From Candidatus Poseidoniaceae archaeon (lineage in GTDB: Archaea; Thermoplasmatota; Poseidoniia; Poseidoniales; Poseidoniaceae), in the NCBI GenBank assembly GCA_045568435.1, contig JBJLBB010000001.1, positions 492,413-556,412 on the forward strand: a stretch of 64,000 nucleotides of DNA. Reading direction: 5' to 3'. The position numbers and the translations under genes are program-made. Shown here in pieces: positions 36,723 to 51,463 of the stretch. Each line of letters begins with the position of its first letter. Position 1 is the first letter of the stretch. The notes below the pieces were generated by a model that had not been told where the DNA came from, searched no databases, and worked only from the letters and a program-made list of their open reading frames with translations.

Positions 36723-37163
36723 TTAGAACAATCCAATATTACTTGATGCCAAGTTGGTTATGACGAGTATTCCACCAATAATAACCGATATACGTAGTGC
36801 TGTGTGATGAGCGTTCCCGTCATATCCTTCGCGAATAAATGCATAGCCAATCATACCAAGAGCTGCTGATTGCATCATTGCTCCTAAGGCACCCAAGGTT
36901 CCCACTAGAGAATTATGACTTGTAAGAGCATCTGTATATTTTTCAGCATCATCATAATCACTCACTACTGGCTCTCCTGTGAGGTTTGGAATCTCGGTTA
37001 GAATCGCTGCCGCTACAACCAGAATAACGCCCACCATCAACCATCTTTGGAATGAATAGGCCCCGTATTTGTCAAGGAATTTCGGTTGTGGTTGGTACGC
37101 TGCCATAGGCTGCATAGGTTGAGGTTGCTGGGCTACTACTGGGGGAGAGGGTGCTGGTTGCAT
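36723..37163 (-). CDS. Hypothetical membrane protein with Pro/Gln-rich N-terminus, downstream of flaJ.
   Basis: MQPAPSPPVVAQQPQPMQPMAAYQPQP... followed by 3 TM helices. Confidence 0.4.
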   Translation of the reverse strand: MQPAPSPPVVAQQPQPMQPMAAYQPQPKFLDKYGAYSFQRWLMVGVILVVAAAILTEIPNLTGEPVVSDYDDAEKYTDALTSHNSLVGTLGALGAMMQSAALGMIGYAFIREGYDGNAHHTALRISVIIGGILVITNLASSNIGLF

Positions 37164-37204: not shown

Positions 37205-39013
37205 CTAAACCGAGAATATAGAGGATGCTGAGTCAAGTATCACTGACGTAAGTAATGAGGTAAGGCCAGCGATCCAAAGGAGATTAATCGACTGTCCTAG
37301 AGCACTGGTTTTACCTCCACCTCTAAGCCTAGTAGCAATCATTGATACCGCTATTACTTGAACCAAAATTAGTATAGACACTACTATCTTGAACATCCTA
37401 ATGTTTTCACCCACAGAACTAGAATCTTCCATCACAGGTAAAGCGACACCACCACCGAAATCCGAGAGTGCTGAGACATCAGTATCAGCAAGACCACTCG
37501 CAACACCAGCAATGGCATCACCCAATTGAAGAACAATCGAAATGGTAACGTTGAGACTGGTTACGCTTGCAATCAACAATCCTATTGCTACACCCCACAT
37601 GGTGTTTGCTGAAAGTGCACGTCGACGTCTTAGAGAAAGCAGACTACCTACTGAACGAGATACCATTTCAGCAGTTTCAGCAGGCCGCCCAGATGACTGA
37701 GAACCTTCGATGTAAATACGCATATATCTTGATATGACGGATGAATTGGTATCTGCATTGAAATAATCCCATGCACGGTCAGAATCAATACGGGTTGAAA
37801 GTCTCTTTTCCAATCTATCAATTGAATTGTCTAACATACCAAAATCAATTCCTCTTAGTGCCTTGATAGTAGCAGAAGGTTCGGCAGAACGTGCTTGAGC
37901 AGTACCGCCTAATGCTCTAATGAAATCAGGATATGTTTCATCGCGACGTAAAACTTGTTTCTCTTCACGACTTACCATCAATGAAGGGAAAATTAGTGGC
38001 GTTAGCGGTATAGCAACGATTAGAAGACCATATTTATCCCATTGGTCTGACAAAGCATCCCAAGCAGAAATTACTGAGATGAACATCACTAATGCTAAGA
38101 AGATAGATATGCCACCTGAAATCAAAAAAGACCTTCTGAAATTAATCCTAAATGGTGTATCCATCTCATCTCTGGCAAATGTTTGATCTTCGGGGATAGT
38201 TGCCCTAAATGCAAATACTGCACCAATCTGAACTATGATAAATATCAAACCTGTCAAAAGTAAGAAACGTATTCTACTAAAAACTTCAATAGGTGTAGAG
38301 TCTGAAGAACCTACCTCGAATAAGACCAAATGAATTCCAGCAATTACCAATGCGAAAAGGCCTGCAGAAACCAATGACACATAAATTTCCTTTAGAGTAT
38401 CCACGGATTCTAATCTTGTATCATATAATGTAGTATATTGCTCAGCAACTGTTTCTTGTTCAGCGCGCATGAATTCATCAATAGGCTGGCCTGCTTCGAT
38501 AGAGAACGCCATTCGGTCGAGGAAATCGGTCCATAATGGACTTGGACTTTGTTGAGCAACAATTCTTGCAGCCTCAGGTAAAGAAGTATGCCACTTATCT
38601 ACAAGTGTCTCAATTCTCTTTACTTCCGATGCCAATTCCCCATAATCGCTCATCTGTTTTAGAATATCAAATATTGATTTGGCGCCGACTTCACCTAGTG
38701 ATAAAATCCCCATACGTGTGATGAACATATGCATCTCTTTTTCAATACGAGTAGCTGAACGTTGTACTTCCAAAAATGGAAAAGATAGCGCCGCTAATGC
38801 TGTAATTAATGGGAATACTAGAATCATCAAAATTCCAGCAAAACCTTGGAATAGGGCACCTTCACCTAAACCTCCTGTAAGATAAATTAGAATTATTGCA
38901 GTGATAAGACCAATTAGGCCTGCACCGCCAACAAAAACAACCAAGAAACGTATAATTGGCATTTCTAAGCGACGAATGGCCACTTGCCAAATTGGCATTC
39001 TTTCCATGTTCAT
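37205..39013 (-). CDS. flaJ: Archaellum assembly polytopic membrane protein FlaJ (ArlJ).
   Basis: 602-aa multi-TM protein with two cytoplasmic domains, TadB/TadC-like; last gene of a flaB...flaH-flaI-flaJ array. Confidence 0.8.
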   Translation of the reverse strand: MNMERMPIWQVAIRRLEMPIIRFLVVFVGGAGLIGLITAIILIYLTGGLGEGALFQGFAGILMILVFPLITALAALSFPFLEVQRSATRIEKEMHMFITRMGILSLGEVGAKSIFDILKQMSDYGELASEVKRIETLVDKWHTSLPEAARIVAQQSPSPLWTDFLDRMAFSIEAGQPIDEFMRAEQETVAEQYTTLYDTRLESVDTLKEIYVSLVSAGLFALVIAGIHLVLFEVGSSDSTPIEVFSRIRFLLLTGLIFIIVQIGAVFAFRATIPEDQTFARDEMDTPFRINFRRSFLISGGISIFLALVMFISVISAWDALSDQWDKYGLLIVAIPLTPLIFPSLMVSREEKQVLRRDETYPDFIRALGGTAQARSAEPSATIKALRGIDFGMLDNSIDRLEKRLSTRIDSDRAWDYFNADTNSSVISRYMRIYIEGSQSSGRPAETAEMVSRSVGSLLSLRRRRALSANTMWGVAIGLLIASVTSLNVTISIVLQLGDAIAGVASGLADTDVSALSDFGGGVALPVMEDSSSVGENIRMFKIVVSILILVQVIAVSMIATRLRGGGKTSALGQSINLLWIAGLTSLLTSVILDSASSIFSV

Positions 39014-39018
39014 ACCTC

Positions 39019-40752
39019 CTAACTATGATTGACTCCAGTCCATGAGTCAATTGCTCTATCAAAGGATTCAAAGCCATTATTATAATAAATTCCAAGCAAA
39101 TCAAAGACATCATCATAGTGAGTTAAATCTCTATCTGCCATCTTTTGAAGTGATGCTGCTCTGTTAAGCATCTCATCATAGATGTCACGCTTGTTAGCAA
39201 AACCAGCCATAGCAGCAATTTTGTTTTCCAAAAGGTGACTTTGGAACATACCACGGAAATAGTGCTTATCCTTGACAGGGTCCCATTCGAACATACCACG
39301 AGTCAACACACCATCGCTATGTTTGTTGTAACCAATTACTTCGTCAATACCTGTGACACGTCTGGCGATTCCTCCCCCAGGTGCCTCAACTACTTCTTGG
39401 AAAATTGCGAAATTCAAGTTATCGAAGAAACGAATTGGAACATTGATTGGGTCACCAGTAAATCTTTGAATCATTTTTACGATTGAAGATGCGTGGAATG
39501 TAGCGATAACCGGGTGACCAGTCTGCATCGCTTGGAATGCTGTTGCACCCTCAACACCACGTATCTCACCGATAATGATGTATCTTGGACGACTTCTTAG
39601 AGCGGCTTTCAGCAAGTCGAACATCTCAACTCTTGATTCTTCATTCTTAGAATCACGAGTAACAAGTCGTTGCCATATCTTGTGACGTACTTTAACTTCA
39701 GGAGTATCTTCTGCTGAGTATATCTTGACATTGTGGTCAATGAATGGTAAAATTGCATTTAACGTCGTAGTTTTACCAGATGCTGTTTCTCCAGATACCA
39801 GAACTGACATACCATATTCTAAGCAGATCCATATGTATGCTGCTACTTGAGTAGAAATAGTACCCCATTTGATCAGTTGGATAATTGAAATTGTTTCTTC
39901 CGCGAATTTACGGATAGTGAATGACGGACCTAACATAGATACATCGTCTGAGAAAATGATATTGATACGTGAACCGTCCAACAATGCACCATCAATAATT
40001 GGTTTGTTGTCTGAAACTGGACGTCCGATACGTTCGGACATTGCTCTTAGATATCTTGAGAGAATCTCTCTCTCACGGAATCGAATATTAGAAGTGACCA
40101 TTCCAAACACTTTGTGGTCCATATGAATATGCTTTAGGCCGATTGAGTGTATATCTTCCAGCATCTCATCAGAAAGAAGGGGCTCAAGTGGACCATTTTT
40201 AATTAAATCTCTAATTACAATATATTGTAATCTATCTCTTTGTTCTGGTGAAACAACAAGTCTCTTATCGTCCATACCAATCATTTCCCAAAACCTTCCT
40301 TGGCGGCGGACTGTTGAGCCAACCTCGCTGTCTAGCATTGTGAATCTGTCAACCATTTGTTCCAGAATATTCTCAAATTCTCCATCTGTGGTAAAAGTAG
40401 GAGCAGTTGGTGCTTCTTGAAGTAATGTCTCCACTAATTCACGTCTAATGTTTTCTTCTTCCTCGCTTAATTGAGGTTCAAGACCAAACCAAAGAATTTC
40501 TCCACCAGCTCCATCTTCATCTTCAGGAGGTTCGTAAATGTGAATGAAAATTGGTTCTTTAGCAGAGTAAATTAGATTATATGGCCTCTCTTTCTTAGCA
40601 TCACGGTCTAATGGACCATAATAAATCGGCCTAGAGCCGTATCTTGATTCAAAGTCACGAACCCAATCTCCAACGTGTGGAAAAGCAGCCATTACGCTGT
40701 TGAGGTCGCCCTTTGCAAAACGTGGTTCATCTGCCATTGAATCCCTCCTCAA
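39019..40752 (-). CDS. flaI: Archaellum ATPase FlaI (ArlI), type II/IV secretion-family ATPase.
   Basis: Walker A LVSGETASGKTTTLNAIL plus downstream Asp/His boxes; 577 aa; between flaH and flaJ. Confidence 0.9.
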   Translation of the reverse strand: MRRDSMADEPRFAKGDLNSVMAAFPHVGDWVRDFESRYGSRPIYYGPLDRDAKKERPYNLIYSAKEPIFIHIYEPPEDEDGAGGEILWFGLEPQLSEEEENIRRELVETLLQEAPTAPTFTTDGEFENILEQMVDRFTMLDSEVGSTVRRQGRFWEMIGMDDKRLVVSPEQRDRLQYIVIRDLIKNGPLEPLLSDEMLEDIHSIGLKHIHMDHKVFGMVTSNIRFREREILSRYLRAMSERIGRPVSDNKPIIDGALLDGSRINIIFSDDVSMLGPSFTIRKFAEETISIIQLIKWGTISTQVAAYIWICLEYGMSVLVSGETASGKTTTLNAILPFIDHNVKIYSAEDTPEVKVRHKIWQRLVTRDSKNEESRVEMFDLLKAALRSRPRYIIIGEIRGVEGATAFQAMQTGHPVIATFHASSIVKMIQRFTGDPINVPIRFFDNLNFAIFQEVVEAPGGGIARRVTGIDEVIGYNKHSDGVLTRGMFEWDPVKDKHYFRGMFQSHLLENKIAAMAGFANKRDIYDEMLNRAASLQKMADRDLTHYDDVFDLLGIYYNNGFESFDRAIDSWTGVNHS

Positions 40753-41483
40753 CTTACCGCCGTAATATCAACGATGAAGCCCATACTAGGCTCAACACGC
40801 CATCCAACAGATGTTTGAACCGGACCTGCGGCTCTTAAGAATCTGGTAACTACAATACTTCTCTTTAGGTCTCCACCTATGAGATTAGTCGATAAATCCA
40901 ATACAACTTCAGAAGATGCTCTCATTGAATGAAGCAACTTATGGTCCATTTCATCAGGGTCAACGCACAACATAATTGAACGACCTTCAGATGAAACCTT
41001 ACGTAATCTTTGCATCATTTCAAACCTCTGATTTTCATCAAGCGAGTCTGGCATCAATGCACTTGCAGAATCAAGAATAATTACGTCTGCTTGCTTTATT
41101 GCATCACTGTTAAGCACTTGCTCTAAACCAACTTCAGCTTTGGATTCTGCAATAGTCCCAAATCGGCTGAAAATCATCAACTGTCCATCTCTGAGATATT
41201 CAGTAACTCCATATCCAATCGATTCCATCTGTTCAATCCATCCTCTAGTGGTAAGTTCTGTAGTTATGACAAGAATTTTTGTACCATTCTCTAACATACC
41301 ATGAACGAGTCTTTGGGCAATCAGAGATTTACCAGCACCGACAACTCCTTGAACAACATACAAAGAACGATTTGGAAGTCTTAGACCCATTGTATCTGCA
41401 AGTGAATCGGTTTCTACATCAAATGGAAAACCATCCTCAACAGGCTTGTGAGGGATAAATAGTGGGTCTTCTTCAGACTTCAT
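40749..41483 (-). CDS. flaH: Archaellum protein FlaH (ArlH), KaiC/RecA-like ATP-binding protein.
   Basis: Walker A VVQGVVGAGKSLIAQ; 244 aa; 4-nt overlap with the flaI start. Confidence 0.8.
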   Translation of the reverse strand: MKSEEDPLFIPHKPVEDGFPFDVETDSLADTMGLRLPNRSLYVVQGVVGAGKSLIAQRLVHGMLENGTKILVITTELTTRGWIEQMESIGYGVTEYLRDGQLMIFSRFGTIAESKAEVGLEQVLNSDAIKQADVIILDSASALMPDSLDENQRFEMMQRLRKVSSEGRSIMLCVDPDEMDHKLLHSMRASSEVVLDLSTNLIGGDLKRSIVVTRFLRAAGPVQTSVGWRVEPSMGFIVDITAVS

Positions 41484-41982
41484 TAACTCTCACCTCTTGA
41501 TTGATTACTGTTTGTCCAGAATATCCGCCAACCGATATTGATTCAGCGAAGATAGAAAACGAGATTTCAGTATCGTCAACTAATCCCCAGGTACCTGAAA
41601 CTTCGACTTCAAGAAGTTGTCCTGAAGCCCAAATTACGCCCGATGGTAAAATAGTTGTAGATGTATCAACATCTGCTATAATTTCACCATTCAATTGGAT
41701 AAATAATGAGGATTCATCAAGTTCATACTGACCTGTATTTTGAAGATAGAAAGTTATCTTCTCATCAGCAGGATTCGAAGTATCATATTCAATATTAGAT
41801 AAATCTCCTGCGAATTTCATTTCAGTATTGAAATCAGCCTCATCTCCACGCCGTTGTTGGTCAAAACTAGTCGCCATTTCTCCCCATTGGGAGATCAATA
41901 CGGCAGAGACACTACCTGAAACCAGAAGTGCGGTTGCAAGCAAAATGAATGATGAAGCTCCTCCGTCTGCCATTGATAACAC
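41473..41982 (-). CDS. flaG: Archaellum protein FlaG-like (ArlG).
   Basis: 169 aa; N-terminal TM (SSFILLATALLVSGSVSAVLI) then a beta-rich domain; position between the flaF-like gene and flaH. The F-versus-G assignment rests on gene order only. Confidence 0.5.
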   Translation of the reverse strand: MLSMADGGASSFILLATALLVSGSVSAVLISQWGEMATSFDQQRRGDEADFNTEMKFAGDLSNIEYDTSNPADEKITFYLQNTGQYELDESSLFIQLNGEIIADVDTSTTILPSGVIWASGQLLEVEVSGTWGLVDDTEISFSIFAESISVGGYSGQTVINQEVRVNEV

Positions 41983-41983
41983 C

Positions 41984-42637
41984 TCAGTCTAAAGCCCTCG
42001 CTAGGTTATATCCATGAGAAGAAACCGCCATTGTAGTAAATGTCGAAGACCCAAATCCTCTCCATTCAATGTTGATGGTTTCTCCTGAATACCAATTTGA
42101 TGTTGCTCCTGGCACTAATACGTCCATTGTTCTAGCATTACTGCCATCTACGAATAGCCATACATCCTCTTGCGGAAGTACAACTGGTCCATTATTTGTC
42201 ACATTGGTATGGATAACTGTACCTAAAGTGGCTTGTAAGTTTGCTACTGTAACTCCTACAGGTGGGCTGTCTACCTGAATAGCCGGCGCTGGGGAAGAGT
42301 AATTCCCATGACTGGTGATTGTCACGGCGTTAATTTCCCCTGTTGCCGGAATTACGGTAAAATCGGCAGTAAAACCACCGGCTACTCCAGTACTCAATGT
42401 ACCATTGACATAGCCAGCACCACCATCTACGATTGTGATACTAATTACAGCTCCTTCCCAAATTGTCGCATCATCAATAGTGAATGATGGTAACGGGTCA
42501 TTGGCCGAATCAAGAGCATCTAATGATGAGTCCATCCTAACATCTAATGTAGTAATTGCTAAAGCAAAAACCACCATTAGGGATGTACCCACTATTAGCC
42601 CTCCTATTCCGACCGATGCGCCCATTTCACTCTTCAC
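41984..42637 (-). CDS. flaF: Archaellum protein FlaF-like (ArlF).
   Basis: 217 aa; N-terminal TM (VGIGGLIVGTSLMVVFALAITT) then a beta-sandwich-like domain; position after the FlaC/D/E-like gene. Confidence 0.5.
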   Translation of the reverse strand: MKSEMGASVGIGGLIVGTSLMVVFALAITTLDVRMDSSLDALDSANDPLPSFTIDDATIWEGAVISITIVDGGAGYVNGTLSTGVAGGFTADFTVIPATGEINAVTITSHGNYSSPAPAIQVDSPPVGVTVANLQATLGTVIHTNVTNNGPVVLPQEDVWLFVDGSNARTMDVLVPGATSNWYSGETINIEWRGFGSSTFTTMAVSSHGYNLARALD

Positions 42638-43484
42638 CTCGAAGATTCTTTACTTCGCGCCATGATGTTACTAATGCAGATAAAGTAAGCAACTCTCTAT
42701 GTGAGAGGTGATCTTCCAATGCATCTTCAGTTTCACCAGGGGAAGCAAGTTGAACAATTGCTAAAACCGCATTACCTTCTTCACTAGATAGCATACCTGA
42801 ATTGGTTGCCTTCTGCGTAAAACTGACTGCTGCCATTCCAGACATATTGTCTAGAAGTAATGCTGCAATTGTTGGTGCTCCAACCTGATTTGCCTGAGTC
42901 GTAGGTCCCGATGAAGGGGCGACTAGGAAAGGATTAGCTGCTAATGCCTGTGCTTCGTAAAGTTCGACCAATGGTGCTTCATCATCACCTTTGAGGCGTT
43001 CAACGCCCCCAGTAGTGATCACTTCTCCATCAGATGTGACTATACGGTCTCCGATATGTCCGTTCTCTCCTTCATCGTCTGAAATAATCTCTCCATCATC
43101 ACCAATTTTTGGTGCGTTTGGATTAATAGAGATTCCTTCTTCAATACGAACTTCGACCATTCTCAGTACATCCTCAACCATGTCGAGGCGACTGCTGATC
43201 AGTCTTTCAAGTCCTGAAGTATCAACTTGAGCATTGACAGTAGCAGGCTGTGCTGAAACAGGATTCATGCTAGAAGCAACTGTTGGAACACTACCAATAC
43301 TGTTCAATTTCGCTCTTGTCGGACCCGGGGAAATCGTCCATGCATCTTCTTCGCTTAGTTCACCCTCTTCTGGAAGAGGTACTTGTTCGATGGCCACGTT
43401 GGCCATTATTTTCAAGCGTTCTTCACTAAGTTCGGCGTCTGCATCTCTGATATTTCCCGAGTTATTTCCAAATGGCCAAGCCAT
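42627..43484 (-). CDS. FlaC/D/E-like archaellum accessory protein (putative).
   Basis: 285-aa acidic soluble protein immediately downstream of the archaellin genes, where euryarchaeal operons encode FlaC/D/E. No strong motif recognised. Confidence 0.4.
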   Translation of the reverse strand: MAWPFGNNSGNIRDADAELSEERLKIMANVAIEQVPLPEEGELSEEDAWTISPGPTRAKLNSIGSVPTVASSMNPVSAQPATVNAQVDTSGLERLISSRLDMVEDVLRMVEVRIEEGISINPNAPKIGDDGEIISDDEGENGHIGDRIVTSDGEVITTGGVERLKGDDEAPLVELYEAQALAANPFLVAPSSGPTTQANQVGAPTIAALLLDNMSGMAAVSFTQKATNSGMLSSEEGNAVLAIVQLASPGETEDALEDHLSHRELLTLSALVTSWREVKNLRGEE

Positions 43485-43495
43485 TGTAATACCTC

Positions 43496-43529
43496 CTTGC
43501 TGTCAAGAATATAATTCTTTAACAGCAAG
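43496..43529 (-). terminator. Stem-loop between flaB2 and downstream accessory genes; candidate attenuator/terminator giving high archaellin:accessory transcript ratios.
   Basis: On the coding strand: TGA-ttttt-CTTGCTGT-(18-nt loop)-ACAGCAAG-GAGGT-n6-ATG. A perfect 8-bp inverted repeat (plus-strand 43496-43503 and 43522-43529) preceded by a T-run and followed by a Shine-Dalgarno-like GGAGGT. Confidence 0.35.
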
Positions 43530-43534
43530 AAAAA

Positions 43535-44110
43535 TCAGATGACTGGGCTTCCAGTTTGGGCGTTGGCAGGTACAGACAATGTTTCGAAGGTGGTTCCACC
43601 GCTCTCAACGTGTATGTATAACTGAGCCTCTTGTCCTGCGATAAGGTTTGCATTGCAAACACCTTGTGCATCGATCAATATCTTGTATGAGTTAGAGACA
43701 AGCATTGGAGATACACCTGCACCGAAAGCAGAAACGGATTGACGTTGGACTTGAGCTGCCCCAAATCCTCCAGCACCCACACTGTCTTCATATCCAGCAC
43801 CATTTGCACAATACAATTGCCATGAAACAGTAGCTGCAGGAATTGAACTACTACCAGCAGCTAGTCTAACATATAGAACATAATCATTGTTACCATCAAC
43901 ATAACCTTGCATTACAGATAATTTACCAGACAATTCGTCCGAGGTTTGATCACCTGTATTTTGAGCATTTTGTTGGAGTTTTTCAGCGGTTTGGATAATT
44001 ACTGCAGAAGCAACTGCAGCAACCAATATTAGAGAGATAAATACAATCATAGCTCCAATACCAATAGCGCCCCATGTGTCTTCTTCTTGGGAAGTGTTTT
44101 CTGTTCTCAC
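43535..44110 (-). CDS. flaB: Archaellin (FlaB/ArlB) 2.
   Basis: N-terminus ...WGAIGIGAMIVFISLILVAAVASAVIIQTAEKLQQNAQN: class III (prepilin-like) signal peptide with the conserved archaellin hydrophobic N-domain. Confidence 0.9.
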   Translation of the reverse strand: MRTENTSQEEDTWGAIGIGAMIVFISLILVAAVASAVIIQTAEKLQQNAQNTGDQTSDELSGKLSVMQGYVDGNNDYVLYVRLAAGSSSIPAATVSWQLYCANGAGYEDSVGAGGFGAAQVQRQSVSAFGAGVSPMLVSNSYKILIDAQGVCNANLIAGQEAQLYIHVESGGTTFETLSVPANAQTGSPVI

Positions 44111-44673
44111 ACTACCACCGTCCCTTGAGCTGTGGATGAACCATAGGTAAGTACCTCGTAAGTGAATCCAGAGTTACCAGCTGCCAAAGTCAAGTAATGA
44201 TTTTGGTTTGTAGTTGGTGCACAATTTGCTGCTACAAGTGTGGTTTGATACACTTGTCCAGGAGTACCGGTTGTACCACCGTTAGCTGAAACTGCTGCAG
44301 TATTGGTACCAGCAGAAGCAAATGTTCCTGCATCGGCACCAACGCCACCAGCTTGACAGGTTATTGACCATTCAATATTTGCCCAAGGTATTGTTTCAGA
44401 CCCAGGAGCTAATTCCCATGTCATCTGCAGATTACCACCAGCATTGATTACAATATTCAATGGCATTACTTTGGATGCCATTTGGTCTTGTGTTTGTTCG
44501 CCTGCTGTCTGGGCGTTTTGTTGCAACTTCTCAGCGGTCTGAATAATGACCGCTGAGGCCACCGCTGCGACTAGGATTAGCGCAATGAATACAATCATCG
44601 CACCAATTCCCATAGCAGCGAGGGTCTCGCTATTTTGGTTTTCTATTTCATTTTTATTTTTCATATTTTTCAC
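44107..44673 (-). CDS. flaB: Archaellin (FlaB/ArlB) 1.
   Basis: N-terminus ...LAAMGIGAMIVFIALILVAAVASAVIIQTAEKLQQNAQT, near-identical to flaB2 over the N-domain. GGTGA Shine-Dalgarno 7 nt upstream of the ATG. Confidence 0.9.
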   Translation of the reverse strand: MKNMKNKNEIENQNSETLAAMGIGAMIVFIALILVAAVASAVIIQTAEKLQQNAQTAGEQTQDQMASKVMPLNIVINAGGNLQMTWELAPGSETIPWANIEWSITCQAGGVGADAGTFASAGTNTAAVSANGGTTGTPGQVYQTTLVAANCAPTTNQNHYLTLAAGNSGFTYEVLTYGSSTAQGTVVV

Positions 44674-44727
44674 CTTTTTTGTTTTTTACTCGTCCTCCCG
44701 CTCCTGCGGGTGGAATGTGATTGGGGC

Positions 44728-45927
44728 TTAGGAGTGACCTCCTCTGCCCATGTCGATGGTCAGTTGCATTCTAATTACTGCAACCTCATCGGGGGATAGA
44801 CGTTCCACAAAGGGAACTTTAGCTGTAGTATAACCCGGAGGTAACCACGGCGTGAGTACGACATCTACTAATGGCTCCATAGAACGATTTTGTGCCCGGA
44901 TTGTAACTATTATCTCTCCAGAGCGCATTTCATAACCAGTAGAAACGGCTAACTTACGAGACAATGGTATTTCATCAGCACCAAACCTTTCAGCAGACTT
45001 AATATCAAATCTTAGTGGAAGATTGCCACCTGGAGCAATTATTGGTAGGTCGACTGAATTCGGTTCAGAATACCATCCCTCTGGTACTGGAGGGGATAGG
45101 CGCATTGCAGGCATTGCAATAGGGCCGTCATTTATCAATCTGACAAGTAAAACTCCTGTGTCGCCTCCAGCAGGCCATCGTGTATCTACTCCAAGCCAGA
45201 AATGCCTGAAAAAGAATGGATTGAGAGTCGAAGTATTACCACCTATCAAATCATCAACAAGGTATTCAACTTCGTTTGCCGCTTGACTAACGTCTCCTAT
45301 TTCAGCAGCGGAAGTAGCGTTTCTTAACCTCAAAAGAATATTTTCAACTTCATCTTTCTCGACTTTCTTTTCCTTTAGCAGACGGTGCAACATAGCAATG
45401 CTGCGCCTTAGATAAAGGACATCTTCCTCGAGAGTAACAAGTGCCTGTTCGGCTTTGTGAACACTCTTCTTGGCGCGACTCAATTTGTGCATAGAGAGGA
45501 ATTTTTTGGCTTCCATTATATCTATCTCTGTTGCAGCGAGTGAGTTGGTATCATCTTGGATAACACTTTGAACTATATGTTCAAGATTATTGGAAGCATT
45601 ACGTATTCGTTCGTTGGAGTTCTCCGGGGCAGAGGCTGTTGGTCCGATTTCTTGGTGCAGATTTTCTTCTGTCACTGCATCCTCTTCGACAGTTTCTTCG
45701 ACGGCGGGTTCTTCTGCTTCAGGAGATTCGTATAACTGATTGAACTCGGTAGCATCTTCATCGATTTCATCCTCGGCAGAAGTACTCGGCAAAGAATTAG
45801 TGTCTATATCTGTAGATGCCGTGTCCCCTTCTTCAGCCACTTCTTCTACTATATTCTGCTCCTCCTCTTGACCAGGAATTATGATGTCGTCAATATCTAT
45901 CTCAACGATTTCGTCTTCAGGCATCAT
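44728..45927 (-). CDS. Hypothetical acidic protein with a central coiled coil, immediately upstream of the archaellin genes.
   Basis: 399 aa; N-terminal third highly acidic (EEEQNIVEEVAEEGD...); predicted coiled coil (KKSVHKAEQALVTLEEDVLYLRRSIAMLHRLLKEKKVEKDEV); start overlaps the end of the 1670-aa gene (45917..45927). Confidence 0.6.
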   Translation of the reverse strand: MMPEDEIVEIDIDDIIIPGQEEEQNIVEEVAEEGDTASTDIDTNSLPSTSAEDEIDEDATEFNQLYESPEAEEPAVEETVEEDAVTEENLHQEIGPTASAPENSNERIRNASNNLEHIVQSVIQDDTNSLAATEIDIMEAKKFLSMHKLSRAKKSVHKAEQALVTLEEDVLYLRRSIAMLHRLLKEKKVEKDEVENILLRLRNATSAAEIGDVSQAANEVEYLVDDLIGGNTSTLNPFFFRHFWLGVDTRWPAGGDTGVLLVRLINDGPIAMPAMRLSPPVPEGWYSEPNSVDLPIIAPGGNLPLRFDIKSAERFGADEIPLSRKLAVSTGYEMRSGEIIVTIRAQNRSMEPLVDVVLTPWLPPGYTTAKVPFVERLSPDEVAVIRMQLTIDMGRGGHS

Positions 45928-48900
45928 CTCTCACCTCCTCATCACCAAGTATTGCATCGATATGCAAGTTATCTAGCATATTAGAATCGGATGCTGTGAT
46001 AGTTTCATCGAATATTTCACTAAGGTCGATTCCTTCATTGGCCAAATCATTGAGTAATCGTGCAGGGTCACTGAGATCTCTTTCAATACGTGTTGCTTTG
46101 ACTTCAATATCGGTCAGCCTTCCATATAAGCCACCATAAAGGCTGTCTGCCCTCTTGACTAGAACCCAAACCCCAATAGTCACTATACCTACATAGCCAC
46201 CTAAAGAGATGAGGTTGGCCTTATTCATCTCGAGTTGAGGGGGAATTCCAAGGACGACTCCTAGCATTCCAAGGAGAGGTAGAGAGAGAATTATTCTTAG
46301 TTGTCTACGGCTATCAGCAAGGGCTTGGAAATGGTCTGCATAAAGGGTTGAAACACCCTTACGTGCTCTTTGATAATCTTCATGTATCAATCTAAATTCA
46401 TCAGTGCTACTCCAAGCCATCTTCCAAACCATCAAGGCAGCAACTAACAATATGAATGGTCCCCAGAATAGAATATTGATCAAGTGGAAGGCGAATCCTA
46501 ATCCTAAGATTCCGGAGTAAACTGCGAATAATCTAAACTTCTCATTCTGACCGGTTAGACGGCCAAGAATTAGAGATAGAAGTGTGAAAACGACAAATGC
46601 TACGAAACTTGAGGATTGGTCTGGAGACCAAGAGTATACTTCATCTTCATAAACTAATTTATCATTACCAGCTACATTCTTTGATAGGAATAGGGGGTCT
46701 ATCTGGACAATACAAGTCCCATCTATTGATTGTGCCCACCAATCTATCTTTTCAGTAGTCAAATTCCATTGAACTGTAGTTTCCTCATCTGGTCCTAGTT
46801 GAGTAATCGGCATAGGGACTGTATTGATAGTAGAACCAGAACAAGTTGCTTCTACTGCAAATATTAGTGCTTGAGAAGTCCCTTCATTTCTTATTGTAGC
46901 ACTTAATACTGAATCAGTACCTTCTTGTAATGTTCCTTCACTAATCCAAACTCGCTTGACTGCAGGGTCTGCATAAACGTCTAATTCAAATCTAAATGTT
47001 TCATTGAATGATTCGGTATATCCTGCATTCTCATCTGGATGGAATAATTTGAACTTTAAGTCCCAACCATCTTCTGTAATCAAGTTGGGCTTATCAGGCA
47101 TATCGACTGAAATTCTAATCAAATTAGGATTCCAAGCAGTGGAAACTGGGAGAGTGTATCTATTGCCACCAGTTGTTTCACCACAATCTACATTGATTAG
47201 CGGTAGTGAATAGGATGTGACTGAACCATTTACTTCATCTATCAATAGAGTAAATGTCCAAGGATAGTTGGCTTCATCTAAACCATTGGCATCAAAGTCA
47301 AACAGTCTTGTGGCAGAACATAATTCAAACTCATATGCCACTGAAGTCGAAGGACCCCTTGGTATGTGAGAGTAAAGCATGTTCACTTCGACTGGTCCGC
47401 CATCTTGTGGAGGTTGCAACACATAATCGCTTATCTTGAAGAATCTAGACATTACCAATGTAGTGTTTAGATATTCAACGCCCTCTACTGAAGTGTCTTG
47501 TGGAGTTAAAGTTACAACCAAGTTAGAGGTTAAATCAAGGTCTGGAGTTATGTCTGTAGCACGGATTAAAAATTCAAAACTAACATTCGAATTACGCGGT
47601 AGAGTAATTTGAGATGGACCTAGTGCTAAAATCCAATCATCGCTGTAAATATCTGAGCTTGGTTCATCATCAAGGTCGAAACCGGATTTGAATATTTTAT
47701 ACTCCACATCGACTGTAACATCTTTATTTCCAACATTGACTATTGTCGCTTCCCATGTCCTGTTACTTTCTCTACTGAATTCCATCTCATAGGGCCAATC
47801 TCTAACCTCGAGCATAAACATTGGAGAAATAACCAACTTCACATTGGCTATTCCGGCTGTTAAGTCAGTAGAAGGATATGCCAGTCTAATTGTTAGATTA
47901 TGAATAGAACCATCGTCAAGCCCTTCGACCTCTGATATTTCAGGGACCGTGACTGTGACGCTACCTTGAATCACTTGATCTTTGATTAAAGTCATCGATT
48001 GTGACTCAGGAACTACTTCCCAGCCACCCTCTACGCTTGCTATGACATCGAAGTTTTCTGCTAAATTTCCAAGATTTGTGACTGTGAAATTTACTACTTG
48101 CTCTTGACCTGGTAGTATCCCCATTTGTTGTGGTGCATCGATTAGAAGAGAACGTTGTTCACTAACATTTGCAACAATATCAGCAGATAAATTCACCCCA
48201 GTATCTGTTGAAACCCAAACTGTGGCCATGTAAAAGGAATCTGAATCGGCATCAGCTGCCGCACTCATACGAATCTTGATAGAATCTTGAGACCCAGGGG
48301 CAATTATAATTTGGTTAGGTGATTCAAGACTGAAATCTACTGCTCCTGATTGAGATTCATCTAACCATATCGAGTATGTTGTAGGAGCATTACCAGTATT
48401 TGTCACATAAACTCTGGTTAGTGGAGTTTCCATTTGTGAAGTATTAATTGGGACTGTTTGATTGGTGGGGGAGAGTGTTGCGTTAATGAAAGGACCGACC
48501 CTAATATCAACGGTTTCCACACCGATTAACATGCCCGTATCCTTATCTTCAATCTTGATGTTAATTGGCTGAATAGTATAGGCTTCAGCGAATGGGTCTG
48601 TTGTTACTGTAAGTCTAAAATTCGTAATGTGAGAATTACCCGATGATACACCATCTGCAACATCAGCAGGAAGGTTATCGATTGTGTTAGAAGTTGTAGT
48701 CGTAGTATTGAGTGAAGCGACCCAGCCATTTGGCAAGTCGTCTAGAATAGAAAGTTGATAAGATGTTAGGTCATTACCAGTATTTGCAAAAGCTAAATCA
48801 TGCCATTTCGGTTCGCCAAGTGGTACGTCGAATGGACCTATGTCGATTATCTCTGCATCTCGTATTGAAGGGATTATGATAGTCATATTTCTAGTCACAT

Positions 48901-50929
48901 CAGAAACTAAAACATTAGGAATTGTTGGACCATTAAGCGTTGGAGTAGCAGTCAAAGGTATGGTTAATGTACCTGCTAGAGGATAATCGTCGTAAGGACC
49001 TTGGATACCTAAAGAAGTAGTACTGCTATCTCCTAGTGACATCCCGGTAAACGACCAAGGGCTTAGGTTAGTAGACCACCTTTTAGCCTCTGAAAAGCCG
49101 CCACTATTCAAGGGCTCAAAGGAGAGATTACCTACAGTTAATACCGAATCCACAGTATTGGATAGAACGCCGTCAAGATTATGACGCACTTCCACTGAGA
49201 GAGGCAACAGGTAATCCCAGCCTAAACCATTCTTAGCATCAATAACTTCTTGTGCAGTTAATTCTAATTGTTCACCATTGAGACCAGGGTCTACGACGAT
49301 TACTGGCCTAACTTCAATTTGACTTGTCGATGTGGAAGGTAGCCCACCATTACTTGACATTGCTTGAACCCAGACATTTAACACATCTCCAGCACGATTG
49401 TATTCAGACAAGTCCAATGGCTTTTGAATTGGAGGCACTGTAATAGAAACTTCGAAGGTAATAACTTCTGAATCATTTACTAATCCAGTGAATGGAGTAG
49501 AAAGTTCAACAGACCAATTACTAGCATTTACTGAAAGTCCGGCAGATAGAGAAAAAGTACCCGGCACGTTACCTGTGTTAGTGAGTGTAGCAGTGAAATT
49601 GACTTCCTTTCCTGGTGTCACCGATGTTGTAGTGGCTGGCATTGTAATAGTTGCTTCAAATAATTCTCCTGCCATTACTCTGGCGGTAGAAGTAAGTGTG
49701 TAACTGCCGCCAACAGACACCAAATCTACAGTAATTGTATCTATTTGAGACCTTAGAGCGTTAGATGGGACGGTCACTGGTACCAAAATGGTTGCACTAG
49801 CACCTGGGGCAAATACATTGGTCGAAGGGCTTGGTGAATGAGGTTGGTTCCAACCTAGGACGCTAGAAACGGCAATAGAAAATGAATCGCTGTTTAGCCC
49901 TTTATTTGTTACAATGAAAGTTAGAGTAGTGGTCAATCCTGGCTCGGTAGTCCTGTCAGCAGGAGTGGATAAAACAGAGATATAATCGGAGAATTCGACA
50001 TCTCTTTGTTGCACTATATCGGAATCTGTCCAGCCTCCTGTTCCGTTGTAAATCACTTTGGCAGTAAGTGACCAAACACCAGCCATAGAACCACCATTGA
50101 AGGAAGTGGAAAGATTTTCACTAACCGCAGGAACGTAAAGAGAGCCCGGGCTTAGTATAATTTCACCAGACCAAAATGTCTTGACATTACTTGGGTCTGC
50201 AACGTTGATAAATTCCAGTTCGAATACTGCTGAAATATCCTTTATTCCATTATTGATGACAGTTGCATTGAAAACTTGGGCGCTGTTAGCAATTCTAGCA
50301 ATCGAAGACCCGCCAGTAGGCAAAGGCACAGAATCGCCAAGGGCGTCACCCTTCATGAAAGGAGGAGAAGAAACATTGAAGTCGAGGCGCTTCTCATCAT
50401 TAGCGGAATTTGGATCAGGGCTTTGCGGCACTACTCTCGCGAACAGTGTTTGTAAATCACCTGGAGAAGCAGTCCAAGCAATTAGCACTGGATTGGATGA
50501 CGACGTCATTGGAATATTACCTAAATTAACAGTCTTGACAATCGTTTCACCTGCCAGAGGGGTGCCTCTGTGTACTAGGGAAACCGATGTCGCCCCATCT
50601 ACTGAACCTGAATTAGAAACCACAATTCTTGCAACATGGGTCGCGTTTTCAACTTCCATACTTGTTCCGTAATCAACAGAACCTGCACCATCCAAAGTGA
50701 ATAGTGAAACGCTGAAGTCTGCAGTGGAGCGAGCCGATGTACCTTCCCCAGCGCTAACTATTGGAGACATAGCTGGGGCCAAGAATAACATTATCATGAT
50801 AATGCCAAGAGACATTTGTGAAAGTTTTTCACGCAGATGCGCCACCTCCTGGTGCTTCGAAATTATCGATTCTAACCTTCTTTCCTTGTCGCTTCCATTG
50901 AGCCAATAACTGGTCAAGTAGCCTTCCAT
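45917..50929 (-). CDS. Giant (about 1630-1670 aa) surface protein: signal peptide, long beta-rich ectodomain (Ig/CARDB-like repeats), C-terminal polytopic (about 6 TM) membrane anchor, cytoplasmic acidic tail. Probable true start is the ATG at 50815 (MSLGIIMIMLFLAPAMSPIVSAGEG).
   Basis: Signal peptide after an internal ATG (verified at 50813-50815). Extended T/S/N/V-rich ectodomain. C-terminal hydrophobic segments SSFVAFVVFTLLSLILGRL, LFAVYSGILGLGFAFHLINILFWGPFILLVAALMVW, IILSLPLLGMLGVVLGI, LISLGGYVGIVTIGVWVLV. Confidence 0.8.
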   Translation of the reverse strand: MEGYLTSYWLNGSDKERRLESIISKHQEVAHLREKLSQMSLGIIMIMLFLAPAMSPIVSAGEGTSARSTADFSVSLFTLDGAGSVDYGTSMEVENATHVARIVVSNSGSVDGATSVSLVHRGTPLAGETIVKTVNLGNIPMTSSSNPVLIAWTASPGDLQTLFARVVPQSPDPNSANDEKRLDFNVSSPPFMKGDALGDSVPLPTGGSSIARIANSAQVFNATVINNGIKDISAVFELEFINVADPSNVKTFWSGEIILSPGSLYVPAVSENLSTSFNGGSMAGVWSLTAKVIYNGTGGWTDSDIVQQRDVEFSDYISVLSTPADRTTEPGLTTTLTFIVTNKGLNSDSFSIAVSSVLGWNQPHSPSPSTNVFAPGASATILVPVTVPSNALRSQIDTITVDLVSVGGSYTLTSTARVMAGELFEATITMPATTTSVTPGKEVNFTATLTNTGNVPGTFSLSAGLSVNASNWSVELSTPFTGLVNDSEVITFEVSITVPPIQKPLDLSEYNRAGDVLNVWVQAMSSNGGLPSTSTSQIEVRPVIVVDPGLNGEQLELTAQEVIDAKNGLGWDYLLPLSVEVRHNLDGVLSNTVDSVLTVGNLSFEPLNSGGFSEAKRWSTNLSPWSFTGMSLGDSSTTSLGIQGPYDDYPLAGTLTIPLTATPTLNGPTIPNVLVSDVTRNMTIIIPSIRDAEIIDIGPFDVPLGEPKWHDLAFANTGNDLTSYQLSILDDLPNGWVASLNTTTTTSNTIDNLPADVADGVSSGNSHITNFRLTVTTDPFAEAYTIQPINIKIEDKDTGMLIGVETVDIRVGPFINATLSPTNQTVPINTSQMETPLTRVYVTNTGNAPTTYSIWLDESQSGAVDFSLESPNQIIIAPGSQDSIKIRMSAAADADSDSFYMATVWVSTDTGVNLSADIVANVSEQRSLLIDAPQQMGILPGQEQVVNFTVTNLGNLAENFDVIASVEGGWEVVPESQSMTLIKDQVIQGSVTVTVPEISEVEGLDDGSIHNLTIRLAYPSTDLTAGIANVKLVISPMFMLEVRDWPYEMEFSRESNRTWEATIVNVGNKDVTVDVEYKIFKSGFDLDDEPSSDIYSDDWILALGPSQITLPRNSNVSFEFLIRATDITPDLDLTSNLVVTLTPQDTSVEGVEYLNTTLVMSRFFKISDYVLQPPQDGGPVEVNMLYSHIPRGPSTSVAYEFELCSATRLFDFDANGLDEANYPWTFTLLIDEVNGSVTSYSLPLINVDCGETTGGNRYTLPVSTAWNPNLIRISVDMPDKPNLITEDGWDLKFKLFHPDENAGYTESFNETFRFELDVYADPAVKRVWISEGTLQEGTDSVLSATIRNEGTSQALIFAVEATCSGSTINTVPMPITQLGPDEETTVQWNLTTEKIDWWAQSIDGTCIVQIDPLFLSKNVAGNDKLVYEDEVYSWSPDQSSSFVAFVVFTLLSLILGRLTGQNEKFRLFAVYSGILGLGFAFHLINILFWGPFILLVAALMVWKMAWSSTDEFRLIHEDYQRARKGVSTLYADHFQALADSRRQLRIILSLPLLGMLGVVLGIPPQLEMNKANLISLGGYVGIVTIGVWVLVKRADSLYGGLYGRLTDIEVKATRIERDLSDPARLLNDLANEGIDLSEIFDETITASDSNMLDNLHIDAILGDEEVRDDA

Positions 50930-51308
50930 GTTCGATGTCGGTAATTCCTAGCCTTCGGCGCTCTTCCCAAAGCAGTAGTTGCTCTGTTTTGGTCAATAGT
51001 GCATCTCTAAGATATAGTTCGAGAGTTCTGCGATAGGCGTCTCTATCTGAAATTGCATAAACAATTACATCGCCAGGAAGTTGGTCGGCACGGTTTTGAA
51101 TGATATTGCCAAGGGTTAGAGCCTCGTCATATGAGAGGTTGCGCTTATCCAAGTCTGCTTGGATTGAACTGGCTATTTGCTGGAGTTCATACTTGCCTGG
51201 AGCACGCTGAACTTGCTTCAACAAGCGGCGGGCCTTTCGAGACATACGTAGACCTACCATGGCAAGTCCTTGAACAAGGCAGTTATTCAAAGAATCGGTT
51301 GCTACCAC
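50829..51308 (-). CDS. Hypothetical protein, first gene of the minus-strand run leading into the archaellum operon.
   Basis: 159-aa basic/helical ORF; stop 14 nt before the probable start of the 1670-aa gene; no motif recognised. Confidence 0.45.
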   Translation of the reverse strand: MVATDSLNNCLVQGLAMVGLRMSRKARRLLKQVQRAPGKYELQQIASSIQADLDKRNLSYDEALTLGNIIQNRADQLPGDVIVYAISDRDAYRRTLELYLRDALLTKTEQLLLWEERRRLGITDIEHGRLLDQLLAQWKRQGKKVRIDNFEAPGGGASA

Positions 51309-51463
51309 ATCGGCTACCCAATATGCGCTTGTTTTTATTCAAATTGCATATTCGATTTACTAAGAGCCTAAATAACGATTGAATTTTACAAAAACTATGA
51401 AAATAACGAATCAAACTGAAAAAACTTGTATCTCGAAATAATGCAACCTTTGATGAGTGATAA
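51309..51463. promoter_or_regulatory. AT-rich divergent promoter region between the 159-aa gene (minus) and bcp (plus).
   Basis: 155-bp non-coding AT-rich sequence (...ttttattcaaattgcatattcgatttactaagagcctaaataacgattgaattttacaaaaactatgaaaataacg...). Confidence 0.3.

What the first reader, a model, noticed from the sequence alone, without database searches (positions are those of the whole stretch)
37205..51308. Archaellum operon extended upstream by three co-oriented non-canonical genes, including a 1630-aa protein with polytopic C-terminal anchor
The canonical flaB1-flaB2-(C/D/E-like)-flaF-flaG-flaH-flaI-flaJ run (44673 down to 37205) is preceded, same strand, by a 159-aa ORF, a 1670-aa giant (signal peptide, huge beta-rich ectodomain, about 6 C-terminal TM helices, acidic cytoplasmic tail) and a 399-aa acidic coiled-coil protein. 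Gaps are short: 14 nt between the first two, and an 11-nt overlap between the giant and the 399-aa gene. Tight coupling with the archaellins suggests an archaellum-associated surface structure (sheath or anchor, S-layer-like platform, or adhesin co-regulated with motility) not part of described archaellum models.
Basis: inference. Interest (0 to 1): 0.6.

Follow-up and report, generated by a model that had tools for sequence, protein, structure and literature searches.

The report
Giant membrane protein heads archaellum operon
In the abundant marine archaea of Marine Group II (Poseidoniales), the operon for the swimming filament (archaellum) always begins with an uncharacterised 1,600-residue surface protein and a cytoplasmic coiled-coil partner, which are probably unrecognised parts of the machine.

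Summary
On the minus strand lie a 143-aa gene (not 159 aa), a 1632-aa giant, a 399-aa acidic coiled-coil protein, then arlB1, arlB2, a 285-aa unknown, and arlF-like, G, H, I and J.

The proposed test was passed. All 48 related species-representative loci with enough upstream sequence carry the trio in the same order. Giants only 21-25% identical, in different genomic surroundings, are still followed by a p399-like gene (62/62), archaellins (37/37) and ArlI (14/14). The 143-aa gene is missing from most of those deep lineages.

The giant's stop overlaps the p399 start in 49/49 loci. A 15-nt motif marks the operon head in both lineages. No T-rich terminator separates p399 from arlB1.

The giant has a signal peptide, about ten NEW3/CARDB-type Ig-like domains, five TM helices and an acidic tail. 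Its cytoplasmic segments are its most conserved parts. No ArlCDE or ArlX is detectable.

Best reading (inferred, not shown): an envelope-spanning scaffold or stator anchor for the archaellum motor. No structure or homology evidence fixes the function. It is a new variant of a known kind, because S-layer-like Ig proteins have been reported in other archaellum loci.

The parts
51282..51299 (-). Head-of-operon motif ACCGATTCTTTGAATAAC (core CCGNTTNTTTCAWWA), 22-39 nt upstream of the p143 ATG. Candidate promoter or operator.
   Evidence: The motif is exact in 38 loci and unique in the window. The core occurs 72 times in 159 loci, always on the operon strand and always just before the first operon gene; naive expectation is 0.07. 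The reading frame to the ATG is not conserved, so it is non-coding. The promoter role is inferred.
51321..51351 (-). Variable inverted repeat (ATATGC...GCATAT) upstream of the motif, in the divergent intergenic region.
   Evidence: Inverted repeats with a different sequence occur at the same place in other loci, for example an 11-bp stem in L031. Function unknown.
50829..51260 (-). p143: small basic (pI 9.8) soluble protein, first gene of the operon in this lineage.
   Evidence: 67-98% identical across loci in which the giant is only 37-90% identical. No Pfam, NCBIfam or PDB match. Present in 48/48 MGIIa-type loci but only 1/53 deep-lineage loci.
45917..50815 (-). Giant, 1632 aa: signal peptide (1-24), ectodomain of about ten or more NEW3/CARDB-type Ig-like domains (25-1398), five TM helices (1399-1554), acidic cytoplasmic tail (1555-1632).
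   Evidence: Five Ig-like Pfam families score above their cut-offs. Topology. AF2 model of residues 1285-1632 has pLDDT 70. Sequons: 26 against 16.9 +/- 3.6 expected. The most conserved segments are the cytoplasmic loop 1469-1504 and the proximal tail 1555-1600. The family is narrow, with full-length members of 1385-1696 aa.
44728..45927 (-). p399: acidic disordered N-terminus (1-105), long helical or coiled-coil region (about 102-228), C-terminal NEW3-like beta domain. No signal peptide or TM helix.
   Evidence: Its start overlaps the giant's stop by 11 nt here and in 49/49 loci. The family alignment across deep lineages keeps the C-terminal domain. NEW3 scores below threshold at the same position in five lineages. 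The AF2 model is poor, pLDDT 48.
44693..44714 (-). Conserved hairpin (UCC-A-CCCGC / GCGGG-A-GGA) in the p399-arlB1 spacer. It is followed by an A-run and the Shine-Dalgarno sequence GGTGA (44670-44674).
   Evidence: Present in about 45 loci, with compensatory stem variants such as CACUCG/CGAGUG and CAUCCUC/GAGGGUG. No T-run follows it.
44107..44664 (-). arlB1 archaellin. The probable start is ATG 44664, downstream of the SD, not GTG 44673.
   Evidence: PF01917, E 9e-18. SD-to-ATG spacing is conserved.
43535..44110 (-). arlB2 archaellin.
   Evidence: PF01917, E 3e-21.
42627..43484 (-). p285: acidic soluble protein at the position where euryarchaeal operons carry arlC/D/E. No recognisable family.
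   Evidence: No Pfam or NCBIfam hit. Conserved at 58-94% in MGIIa-type loci and 25-32% in deep lineages.
41984..42637 (-). ArlF-like protein (N-terminal TM helix plus beta domain).
   Evidence: NF052590, E 7e-6, below the cut-off; weak CARDB match. Position is upstream of arlG.
41473..41982 (-). ArlG.
   Evidence: NF052591, E 8e-16.
40749..41483 (-). ArlH (KaiC-like).
   Evidence: NF052589, E 3e-53.
39019..40752 (-). ArlI ATPase.
   Evidence: PF00437, E 4e-37.
37205..39013 (-). ArlJ platform protein.
   Evidence: NF004704, E 5e-116.
36723..37163 (-). p146: small membrane protein following arlJ on the same strand.
   Evidence: Conserved (33-95%) downstream of arlJ in most MGIIa-type loci and not detected in deep lineages.

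Best explanation
The upstream genes are the leading genes of a Poseidoniales-type archaellum operon.

The giant is a glycosylated, S-layer-like chain of Ig-like domains. Five TM helices hold it in the membrane. Its conserved cytoplasmic loop and tail most likely dock the cytoplasmic coiled-coil/beta-sandwich protein p399, which is made by coupled translation.

Together they would form a fixed, envelope-spanning scaffold around the ArlJ/I/H motor:
- Inside the cell they take the place of the missing ArlX or ArlCDE ring.
- Outside they give the ArlF/G stator something to hold against, so that torque turns the filament and not the motor.

p143 is a lineage-restricted add-on, perhaps a regulator or chaperone, and is not a core part.

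Shown: the gene linkage, the domain architecture and the conservation pattern. Inferred: the physical complex and its stator or scaffold role.
For: Linkage
- 48/48 ArlH-anchored species-representative loci carry p143, the giant and p399 in order.
- Giant-anchored loci always continue into p399 (55/55 and 62/62), ArlB (55/55 and 37/37) and ArlI (48/48 and 14/14).
- The linkage survives at 21-25% giant identity and with different flanking genes. Neighbourhood inertia therefore does not explain it.

Operon structure
- The giant's stop overlaps the p399 start in 49/49 loci.
- The same 15-nt motif sits before the first operon gene in both lineages.
- There is no T-run or AT-rich box before arlB1 in the window's lineage.

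A structural rather than adaptive character
- Length stays at 1385-1696 aa across the whole family.
- The family is narrow, at most about 65 of 1.84 billion representatives.
- The cytoplasmic loop and proximal tail are the most conserved parts of the giant.
- p399 residues 120-399 are nearly invariant within MGIIa.

A vacant role
- No ArlC/D/E or ArlX is found by Pfam or NCBIfam.
- Published analyses report no identifiable chemotaxis genes in this order (PMC6461757).

An open question that fits
- How ArlF/G are anchored in Thermoplasmatota without an S-layer is unresolved (PMC12448462).
Against: - No structural or sequence homology ties the giant's TM module, p399 or p143 to any known motor part.
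- The p399 model was unusable, and no complex was modelled.
- In the deep lineages the p399-arlB spacer carries an AT-rich TATA-like box. There the archaellins may have their own promoter, and co-transcription is unproven everywhere.
- Whether Poseidoniales have an ordinary S-layer is unknown.
- A NEW3-like domain in a cytoplasmic protein is unusual.
- Whether genomes that lost the archaellum also lost the giant could not be tested.
Confidence: 0.45

Rival explanations
1. Co-regulated adhesin. The giant is a surface adhesin made together with the filament for particle attachment. p399 is its cytoplasmic handling or anchoring factor. Neither is part of the motor.
For: Rinke 2019 argues that the MGII archaellum serves adhesion, because no chemotaxis genes are identifiable (PMC6461757). 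The ectodomain consists of Ig-like NEW3/CARDB domains of the kind found in many surface proteins, and it is enriched in glycosylation sequons.
Against: - Length is fixed and there is one copy per locus. No repeat expansion is seen, and conservation is even along the ectodomain.
- The strongest conservation is cytoplasmic.
- The same window holds different giant proteins (He_PIG Ig repeats, RCC1 repeats) that fit an adhesin better.
Confidence: 0.22
2. Local envelope port. The giant is an S-layer-like protein that opens or remodels the cell envelope where the filament passes through, as proposed for arCOG05057 proteins in Methanococcales and Thermococcales. It bears no torque.
For: A published proposal exists for S-layer-like multi-Ig proteins in archaellum loci (bioRxiv 10.64898/2026.04.22.720090). 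The giant has the same general build, a signal peptide plus many Ig-like folds.
Against: This reading does not explain the five-helix anchor, the invariant cytoplasmic motifs or the coupled cytoplasmic partner. Homology to arCOG05057 could not be tested.
Confidence: 0.15
3. The cell's general S-layer or envelope glycoprotein, which merely lies beside the arl genes.
For: It is an acidic, sequon-rich, multi-Ig ectodomain with a membrane anchor, as in archaeal S-layer glycoproteins.
Against: - Every homologue seen lies directly upstream of arl genes, in several lineages with different flanks.
- Published surveys find half of the Thalassarchaeaceae genera without the operon (PMC6461757). These would still need an envelope protein, yet the family search found no homologues in another context.
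Confidence: 0.08
4. Functionally unrelated neighbours, kept together only because gene order is conserved in this group.
For: Within MGIIa-type genomes the wider neighbourhood is also syntenic (AhpC, hexapeptide transferase, flavin reductase, HhH-GPD).
Against: In the deep lineages the flanks differ, yet the giant-p399-arl block persists. The genes overlap, and a shared motif marks the operon head.
Confidence: 0.05

Closest known systems
S-layer-like multi-Ig proteins in Methanococcales (arCOG05057) and Thermococcales archaellum loci, and in archaeal type IV pilus loci (Makarova 2016, PMC4858521; bioRxiv 10.64898/2026.04.22.720090)
   Same: A secreted protein built of several Ig-like folds, encoded inside an archaellum gene cluster and of unknown role.
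   Different: - The giant ends in five TM helices with invariant cytoplasmic motifs.
- It is coupled to a cytoplasmic coiled-coil partner.
- It leads the operon.
- It is universal in its lineage rather than sporadic.
- Sequence relatedness to arCOG05057 could not be tested here.
ArlX (FlaX) ring of Thermoproteota, and the ArlC/D/E complex of Euryarchaeota
   Same: These are lineage-specific cytoplasmic accessory proteins that surround or support ArlH/I/J. ArlX is a membrane-anchored coiled-coil protein. Here p399 (coiled coil) plus the giant's anchor could supply the same two features, and p285 sits where arlC/D/E normally lie.
   Different: There is no detectable homology. p399 has no TM helix of its own and carries a beta-sandwich domain. 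The linked chemotaxis system is reported to be absent (PMC6461757).
ArlF/ArlG stator anchored to the S-layer (Tsai 2019 and Umrekar 2021, as cited in PMC12448462)
   Same: This is the concept of an extracellular anchoring point that stops the motor from spinning in the membrane. ArlF-like and ArlG genes are present in this operon.
   Different: The anchoring partner known so far is the general S-layer. Here a dedicated, operon-encoded membrane protein is proposed. This is inference only.
PilM-PilN/O/P alignment subcomplex of bacterial type IV pili
   Same: An analogy only: a membrane-spanning component whose short cytoplasmic segment docks a cytoplasmic partner, linking the inner machine to the outer envelope.
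   Different: There is no homology. The domain types, size and organisms all differ.

Membership tests
Archaellum (arl/fla) gene cluster | Archaellin genes with the PF01917 N-terminal domain | tested here: met
   Two genes, E 9e-18 and 3e-21, above the 29.5-bit cut-off.
Archaellum (arl/fla) gene cluster | Core motor genes arlH, arlI and arlJ in one locus | tested here: met
   NF052589 E 3e-53; PF00437 E 4e-37; NF004704 E 5e-116. The NCBIfam scores fall below the curated equivalog cut-offs, as expected for a divergent lineage.
Archaellum (arl/fla) gene cluster | Stator genes arlF and arlG | tested here: inconclusive
   ArlG E 8e-16 (58 bits, cut-off 110). ArlF only E 7e-6 (26 bits). Gene order supports both.
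Archaellum (arl/fla) gene cluster | Either arlC/D/E (euryarchaeal type) or arlX (crenarchaeal type) | tested here: not met
   p285, p399 and p143 have no hit to any such model in Pfam or NCBIfam, even at E up to 10.
NEW3 / CARDB-type Ig-like domain proteins | Domain matches above Pfam gathering scores (the giant) | tested here: met
   Bits against cut-off: PF22544 44.6/25.5; PF23619 31.2/27; PF11614 29.0/25.6; PF10633 27.2/24.4; PF07705 23.1/22.7. The Foldseek top hits cover only the Ig-like domain.
NEW3 / CARDB-type Ig-like domain proteins | Domain match in p399 | tested here: inconclusive
   PF10633 scores below threshold but at the equivalent position in five lineages: 15.9 bits for the window protein and 12.1-20.6 bits for four deep-lineage homologues. 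The N.G and P.GW motifs are conserved.
S-layer-like archaellum-locus proteins (arCOG05057 type) | Signal peptide plus several Ig-like folds, encoded in an archaellum locus | tested here: met
S-layer-like archaellum-locus proteins (arCOG05057 type) | Sequence membership of arCOG05057 | not testable with these tools
   No arCOG library or member sequences were available. The profile search with the C-terminal module found no relatives outside the 1385-1696-aa family.
ArlX | N-terminal TM helix followed by a cytoplasmic coiled coil that forms a ring around ArlH/I | tested here: not met
   p399 has a long helix but no TM segment and no sequence match. Ring formation cannot be tested.
Archaellum transcription regulators (EarA, ArnR type), considered for p143 | Recognisable DNA-binding domain or family match | tested here: not met
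   No family or PDB match. Only its basic pI of 9.8 suggests nucleic-acid binding.

The most novel reading that the evidence does not exclude
Poseidoniales run their archaellum with a previously unknown kind of stator and scaffold. It is a single giant protein that spans from a canopy of about 10-12 Ig-like domains outside the cell, through five membrane helices, to conserved cytoplasmic docking motifs that hold a coiled-coil ring (p399). This replaces both ArlX/ArlCDE and the need for an S-layer anchor. It would answer how archaella generate torque in Thermoplasmatota whose envelopes lack an ordered S-layer.
Probability: 0.3. Interest if true: 0.8.

Novelty: new variant of a known kind. Interest (0 to 1): 0.6.

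Why it matters
Marine Group II archaea are among the most abundant archaea in surface oceans, and none has been cultured. Whether their archaellum swims or sticks is debated. This work shows that their arl operon has a distinct composition: no recognisable ArlCDE or ArlX, but a universal giant membrane protein with a cytoplasmic partner.

That gives archaellum researchers concrete candidates for two things: the missing cytoplasmic ring, and the anchoring point of the ArlF/G stator. How the stator is anchored is explicitly an open question for relatives that lack an S-layer (PMC12448462).

It also supplies a 15-nt cis-element and conserved leader hairpins that could be used to trace regulation of motility in ocean metatranscriptomes.

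Tried and rejected
It was not used for fold search.
- AF2 on the giant's C-terminal 347 residues gave pLDDT 70. Foldseek against the PDB matched only the Ig-like domain (Fsx1, FixG-related protein, macroglobulin domains) and nothing for the TM module.
- Profile searches of p143 and of the p399 family against PDB sequences gave only noise and coiled-coil matches.
- Pfam at E up to 10 and NCBIfam gave nothing for p143, p285 or the giant's TM region.
- An Rfam gathering-threshold scan of the window found nothing.
- The promoter/terminator scanner is bacterial in type. Its hits were at or below shuffle expectation and were disregarded.
- A ten-sequence alignment of deep-lineage giants was too diverse for the locus search. 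A three-sequence alignment was used instead.
- Taxon names for the deep lineages could not be obtained. Cluster members carry no organism names, and the LUMT/LUMS records are bulk Red Sea metagenome assemblies. Calling them MGIIb is therefore only a guess.
- A Red Sea start-site study (PMC5069720) reports a highly expressed MGII pilin-like gene, not this operon.
- I considered that the 159-aa ORF extension might be coding. I rejected this because the frame between the motif and the ATG varies between loci.
- I considered p143 to be a core part of the module. I rejected this because most deep-lineage operons start directly with the giant.
Full report
**1. What is in the window**

Between 36.7 and 51.3 kb, thirteen genes lie head to tail on the minus strand. 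HMM searches identify:
- two archaellins (PF01917, E 9e-18 and 3e-21);
- ArlG (E 8e-16);
- ArlH (E 3e-53);
- ArlI (T2SSE, E 4e-37);
- ArlJ (E 5e-116);
- a weak ArlF-like protein (E 7e-6).

The 285-aa protein at the position where euryarchaeal operons carry arlC/D/E matches nothing.

Upstream lie the three genes of the finding. The first-stage description needs small corrections.
- The first gene is 143 aa, starting at ATG 51260. The 16 extra codons of the 159-aa GTG ORF cover an invariant nucleotide motif whose reading frame relative to the ATG differs between loci, so they are not coding.
- The giant starts at ATG 50815 and is 1632 aa. It lies 13 nt after the stop of the first gene.
- Its stop overlaps the start of the 399-aa gene by 11 nt.

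Homologues carry names such as 'Candidatus Poseidoniaceae archaeon' and 'Poseidonia sp.'. The window therefore comes from a Marine Group II archaeon.

**2. Anatomy of the three proteins**

*The giant.*
- It has a signal peptide and a 1374-residue ectodomain.
- The ectodomain matches five Ig-like Pfam families above their cut-offs: HYDIN/VesB-like, VWA7-Ig, FixG_C, NEW3 and CARDB.
- The 'hydrophobic-x-hydrophobic-x-N-x-G' strand signature recurs about every 110-130 residues. Invariant N.G columns persist across deep relatives. I infer ten to twelve beta-sandwich domains.
- N-glycosylation sequons are enriched: 26 against 16.9 +/- 3.6 in shuffles.
- Five hydrophobic helices follow (1399-1554), then a 78-residue acidic tail.
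- An AF2 model of the last 347 residues (pLDDT 70) shows one beta sandwich followed by five long helices. Two of these helices extend well beyond the membrane span. The distal tail is disordered.
- The best-conserved parts of the whole protein are the predicted cytoplasmic loop (EFRLIHEDYQRARKGVSTLYADHFQAL) and the proximal tail (YGxLYGRLTDIEVKATRIERDLxDPARLL). Recognisable versions survive in relatives only 21-25% identical overall.

*p399.*
- It has no signal peptide and no TM segment.
- Its first 105 residues are acidic (37 D+E, 0 K+R) and variable.
- A long helix and further helices follow, then a beta domain (low-confidence model, secondary structure only).
- The beta domain gives sub-threshold NEW3 matches at the same position in five separate lineages. 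It keeps the N.G and P.GW motifs typical of that fold.
- Within MGIIa-type genomes, residues 120-399 are almost invariant.

*p143.* It is small, basic (pI 9.8), helical by composition and very conserved: 67-98% identical where the giant is 37-90%. It has no family or PDB match.

**3. Is the association real?**

I anchored a search of species-representative genomes on ArlH, so that loci would be found whether or not the trio was present. Of the 80 best loci, 48 have at least 9.4 kb upstream. All 48 carry p143, the giant and p399 in the same order and on the same strand. Every apparent absence is a contig end.

Wider gene order is also conserved among these genomes, so this result alone could reflect simple synteny. 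I therefore looked for distant relatives.
- A profile of the giant's C-terminal module, searched against 1.84 billion representative proteins, found a narrow family. At most about 65 hits cover the TM and cytoplasmic module, and the full-length ones are 1385-1696 aa. All other hits touch only the Ig domain.
- Several branches are 21-30% identical to the window protein.
- I fetched one such branch from marine metagenomes. Every locus long enough continues into a p399-like gene (62/62), archaellins (37/37) and ArlI (14/14). ArlH is about 50% and ArlI about 68% identical to the window's.
- The flanking genes there are different. The giant is the first gene on its strand, preceded by a divergent gene.
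- A third branch keeps a 138-aa p143 homologue directly before the giant (L149; also the P0075 contig).

So the giant and p399 are constant companions of this type of arl operon. p143 is not: it occurs in 1/53 deep loci.

**4. Transcription-unit evidence (sequence only)**

- The giant's stop overlaps the p399 start in 49/49 loci, mostly by 8, 11 or 14 nt. The p143-giant gap ranges from -17 to +58 nt.
- An 18-nt block, ACCGATTCTTT(C/G)AATAAC, is exact in 38 loci, 22-39 nt before the p143 ATG.
- Its core, CCGNTTNTTTCAWWA, also precedes the giant in the deep branch that lacks p143. Overall there are 72 matches in 159 loci (4.6 Mb counting both strands; naive expectation 0.07). All are on the operon strand and all are at the operon head.
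- I read this as the operon's promoter or operator. That is an inference; the spacing would fit a TATA-like box with a very short leader.
- Between p399 and arlB1 the window's lineage has no T-run and no AT-rich box. It has a conserved hairpin with compensatory variants, an A-run and a GGTGA Shine-Dalgarno sequence. This looks like a leader or processing element rather than a terminator/promoter pair.
- In the deep branch the corresponding spacer is longer and contains TTTTCCACTAATATCATAAGTGA about 49 nt before the ATG. There the archaellins may have a promoter of their own.
- Co-transcription is therefore likely but unproven.

**5. What it most likely does**

The data argue for a dedicated part of the archaellum apparatus rather than a passenger.
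- The linkage survives deep divergence and changes of genomic context.
- Length and single-copy status are fixed.
- Conservation peaks on the cytoplasmic side of a protein that is mostly extracellular.
- A cytoplasmic partner is translationally coupled to it.
- The operon lacks any recognisable ArlX or ArlCDE, and published analyses found no identifiable chemotaxis genes in this order (PMC6461757).

My best model, given 0.45 confidence, is an envelope-spanning static scaffold. p399 forms the cytoplasmic support around ArlH/I and is tethered by the giant's conserved loop and tail. The ectodomain gives ArlF/G a fixed hold. This matters because how the stator is anchored in Thermoplasmatota without an ordered S-layer is an acknowledged open question (PMC12448462). 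None of these contacts has been shown.

The rivals are:
- a co-expressed adhesin (0.22);
- a local envelope 'port', as proposed for arCOG05057 proteins (0.15);
- the general S-layer protein (0.08);
- mere neighbourhood (0.05).

The adhesin reading is weakened by the conservation pattern. It is also weakened by the presence in the same window of different and more adhesin-like giants, with He_PIG and RCC1 repeats.

**6. Relation to what is known**

- Tully 2019 drew a 'putative MGII motility operon' with 'several orthologous proteins lacking annotations' and noted conserved neighbours in MGIIa (PMC6336850). These proteins were not analysed.
- Rinke 2019 reported the operon in all Poseidoniaceae genera and in half of the Thalassarchaeaceae genera (PMC6461757).
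- S-layer-like Ig-fold proteins have been recorded as extras in archaeal type IV pilus loci (PMC4858521). They have also been recorded in Methanococcales and Thermococcales archaellum loci (bioRxiv 10.64898/2026.04.22.720090).
- I found no description of a polytopic giant with a coupled coiled-coil partner as a constant feature of an archaellum operon.
- I therefore rate it a new variant of a known kind, not a new category.

**7. Limits**

- Only two structure jobs were allowed, and one failed for lack of alignment depth.
- Two fold libraries were unavailable.
- The taxonomy of the deep branches could not be established.
- I could not test whether lineages that lost the archaellum also lost the giant.
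- There are no expression data.

Noticed in passing
window 44693-44714 (- strand), and the p399-arlB1 spacers of L001-L082: A conserved hairpin lies just upstream of the archaellin ribosome-binding site: UCC-A-CCCGC / GCGGG-A-GGA, followed by an A-run, GGTGA and ATG. Other loci keep the stem through compensatory changes (CACUCG/CGAGUG, CAUCCUC/GAGGGUG, CACCC/GGGUG). Mean folding z-score against mononucleotide shuffles is -2.0 over 35 spacers. The 5' arm (CCACC) could alternatively pair with the SD. It may be an mRNA processing, stability or translational control element.
   Followed up: partly
window 51282-51299 (- strand); L083-L146, about 54 nt before the giant's ATG: The motif CCGNTTNTTTCAWWA is shared by the operon heads of two lineages whose giants are under 25% identical, whichever gene comes first. 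There are 72 matches, all on the operon strand, against an expectation of 0.07. It is too specific to be a generic TATA box, so it may be the site of a dedicated regulator.
   Followed up: partly
L086-L146, the 38 nt between the head motif and the giant's ATG: In the deep lineage the leader holds an almost invariant hairpin, CTCCTC-TAC-GAGGAG, followed by GGGAGCGGAAGC. The SD-like GGAGG lies in the 3' arm of the hairpin.
   Followed up: no
window 51321-51351 (- strand) and the same position in other loci: An inverted repeat lies in the divergent intergenic region. Its sequence differs between loci but its symmetry is kept, for example GCAGTATGAAT...ATTCATACTGC in L031. It starts at a TTTTATGC box.
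   Followed up: no
window 42627-43484 (- strand): p285, at the arlC/D/E position, has no family match. It is nevertheless conserved in all lineages (58-94% and 25-32% identity). It is a second uncharacterised, lineage-specific archaellum-operon protein.
   Followed up: partly
window 41984-42637 compared with L140:17469-17873 and L149:13678-14073: The ArlF-like protein is 217 aa in the window's lineage but 131-134 aa in the deep lineages. The window's lineage therefore carries about 85 extra residues.
   Followed up: no
window 36723-37163 (- strand): A 146-aa membrane protein directly follows arlJ. It is conserved in most MGIIa-type loci (33-95%) and was not detected in the deep lineages.
   Followed up: no
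window 1305-8987, 12921-21782, 8869-11862, 22184-25615: Four other very large ORFs lie on the minus strand. Two carry He_PIG Ig repeats (2560 and 2953 aa). Two carry RCC1 repeats (997 and 1143 aa); the 997-aa protein also has one He_PIG domain. The 22-24 kb stretch, with GC of 0.57 against about 0.43 elsewhere, lies in an RCC1-repeat gene.
   Followed up: partly
L078 (NZEQ01000038.1): This contig carries a complete Poseidoniales-type operon (giant 40%, ArlI 89% identical) but is filed under 'Verrucomicrobiales bacterium isolate ARS100'. It is probably a mis-binned contig.
   Followed up: no
P0210, P0222, P0283 and the window ORF 50829-51308: Several database versions of p143 carry a spurious N-terminal extension (…TDSLNN…). 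It arises from translating the conserved non-coding head motif.
   Followed up: yes
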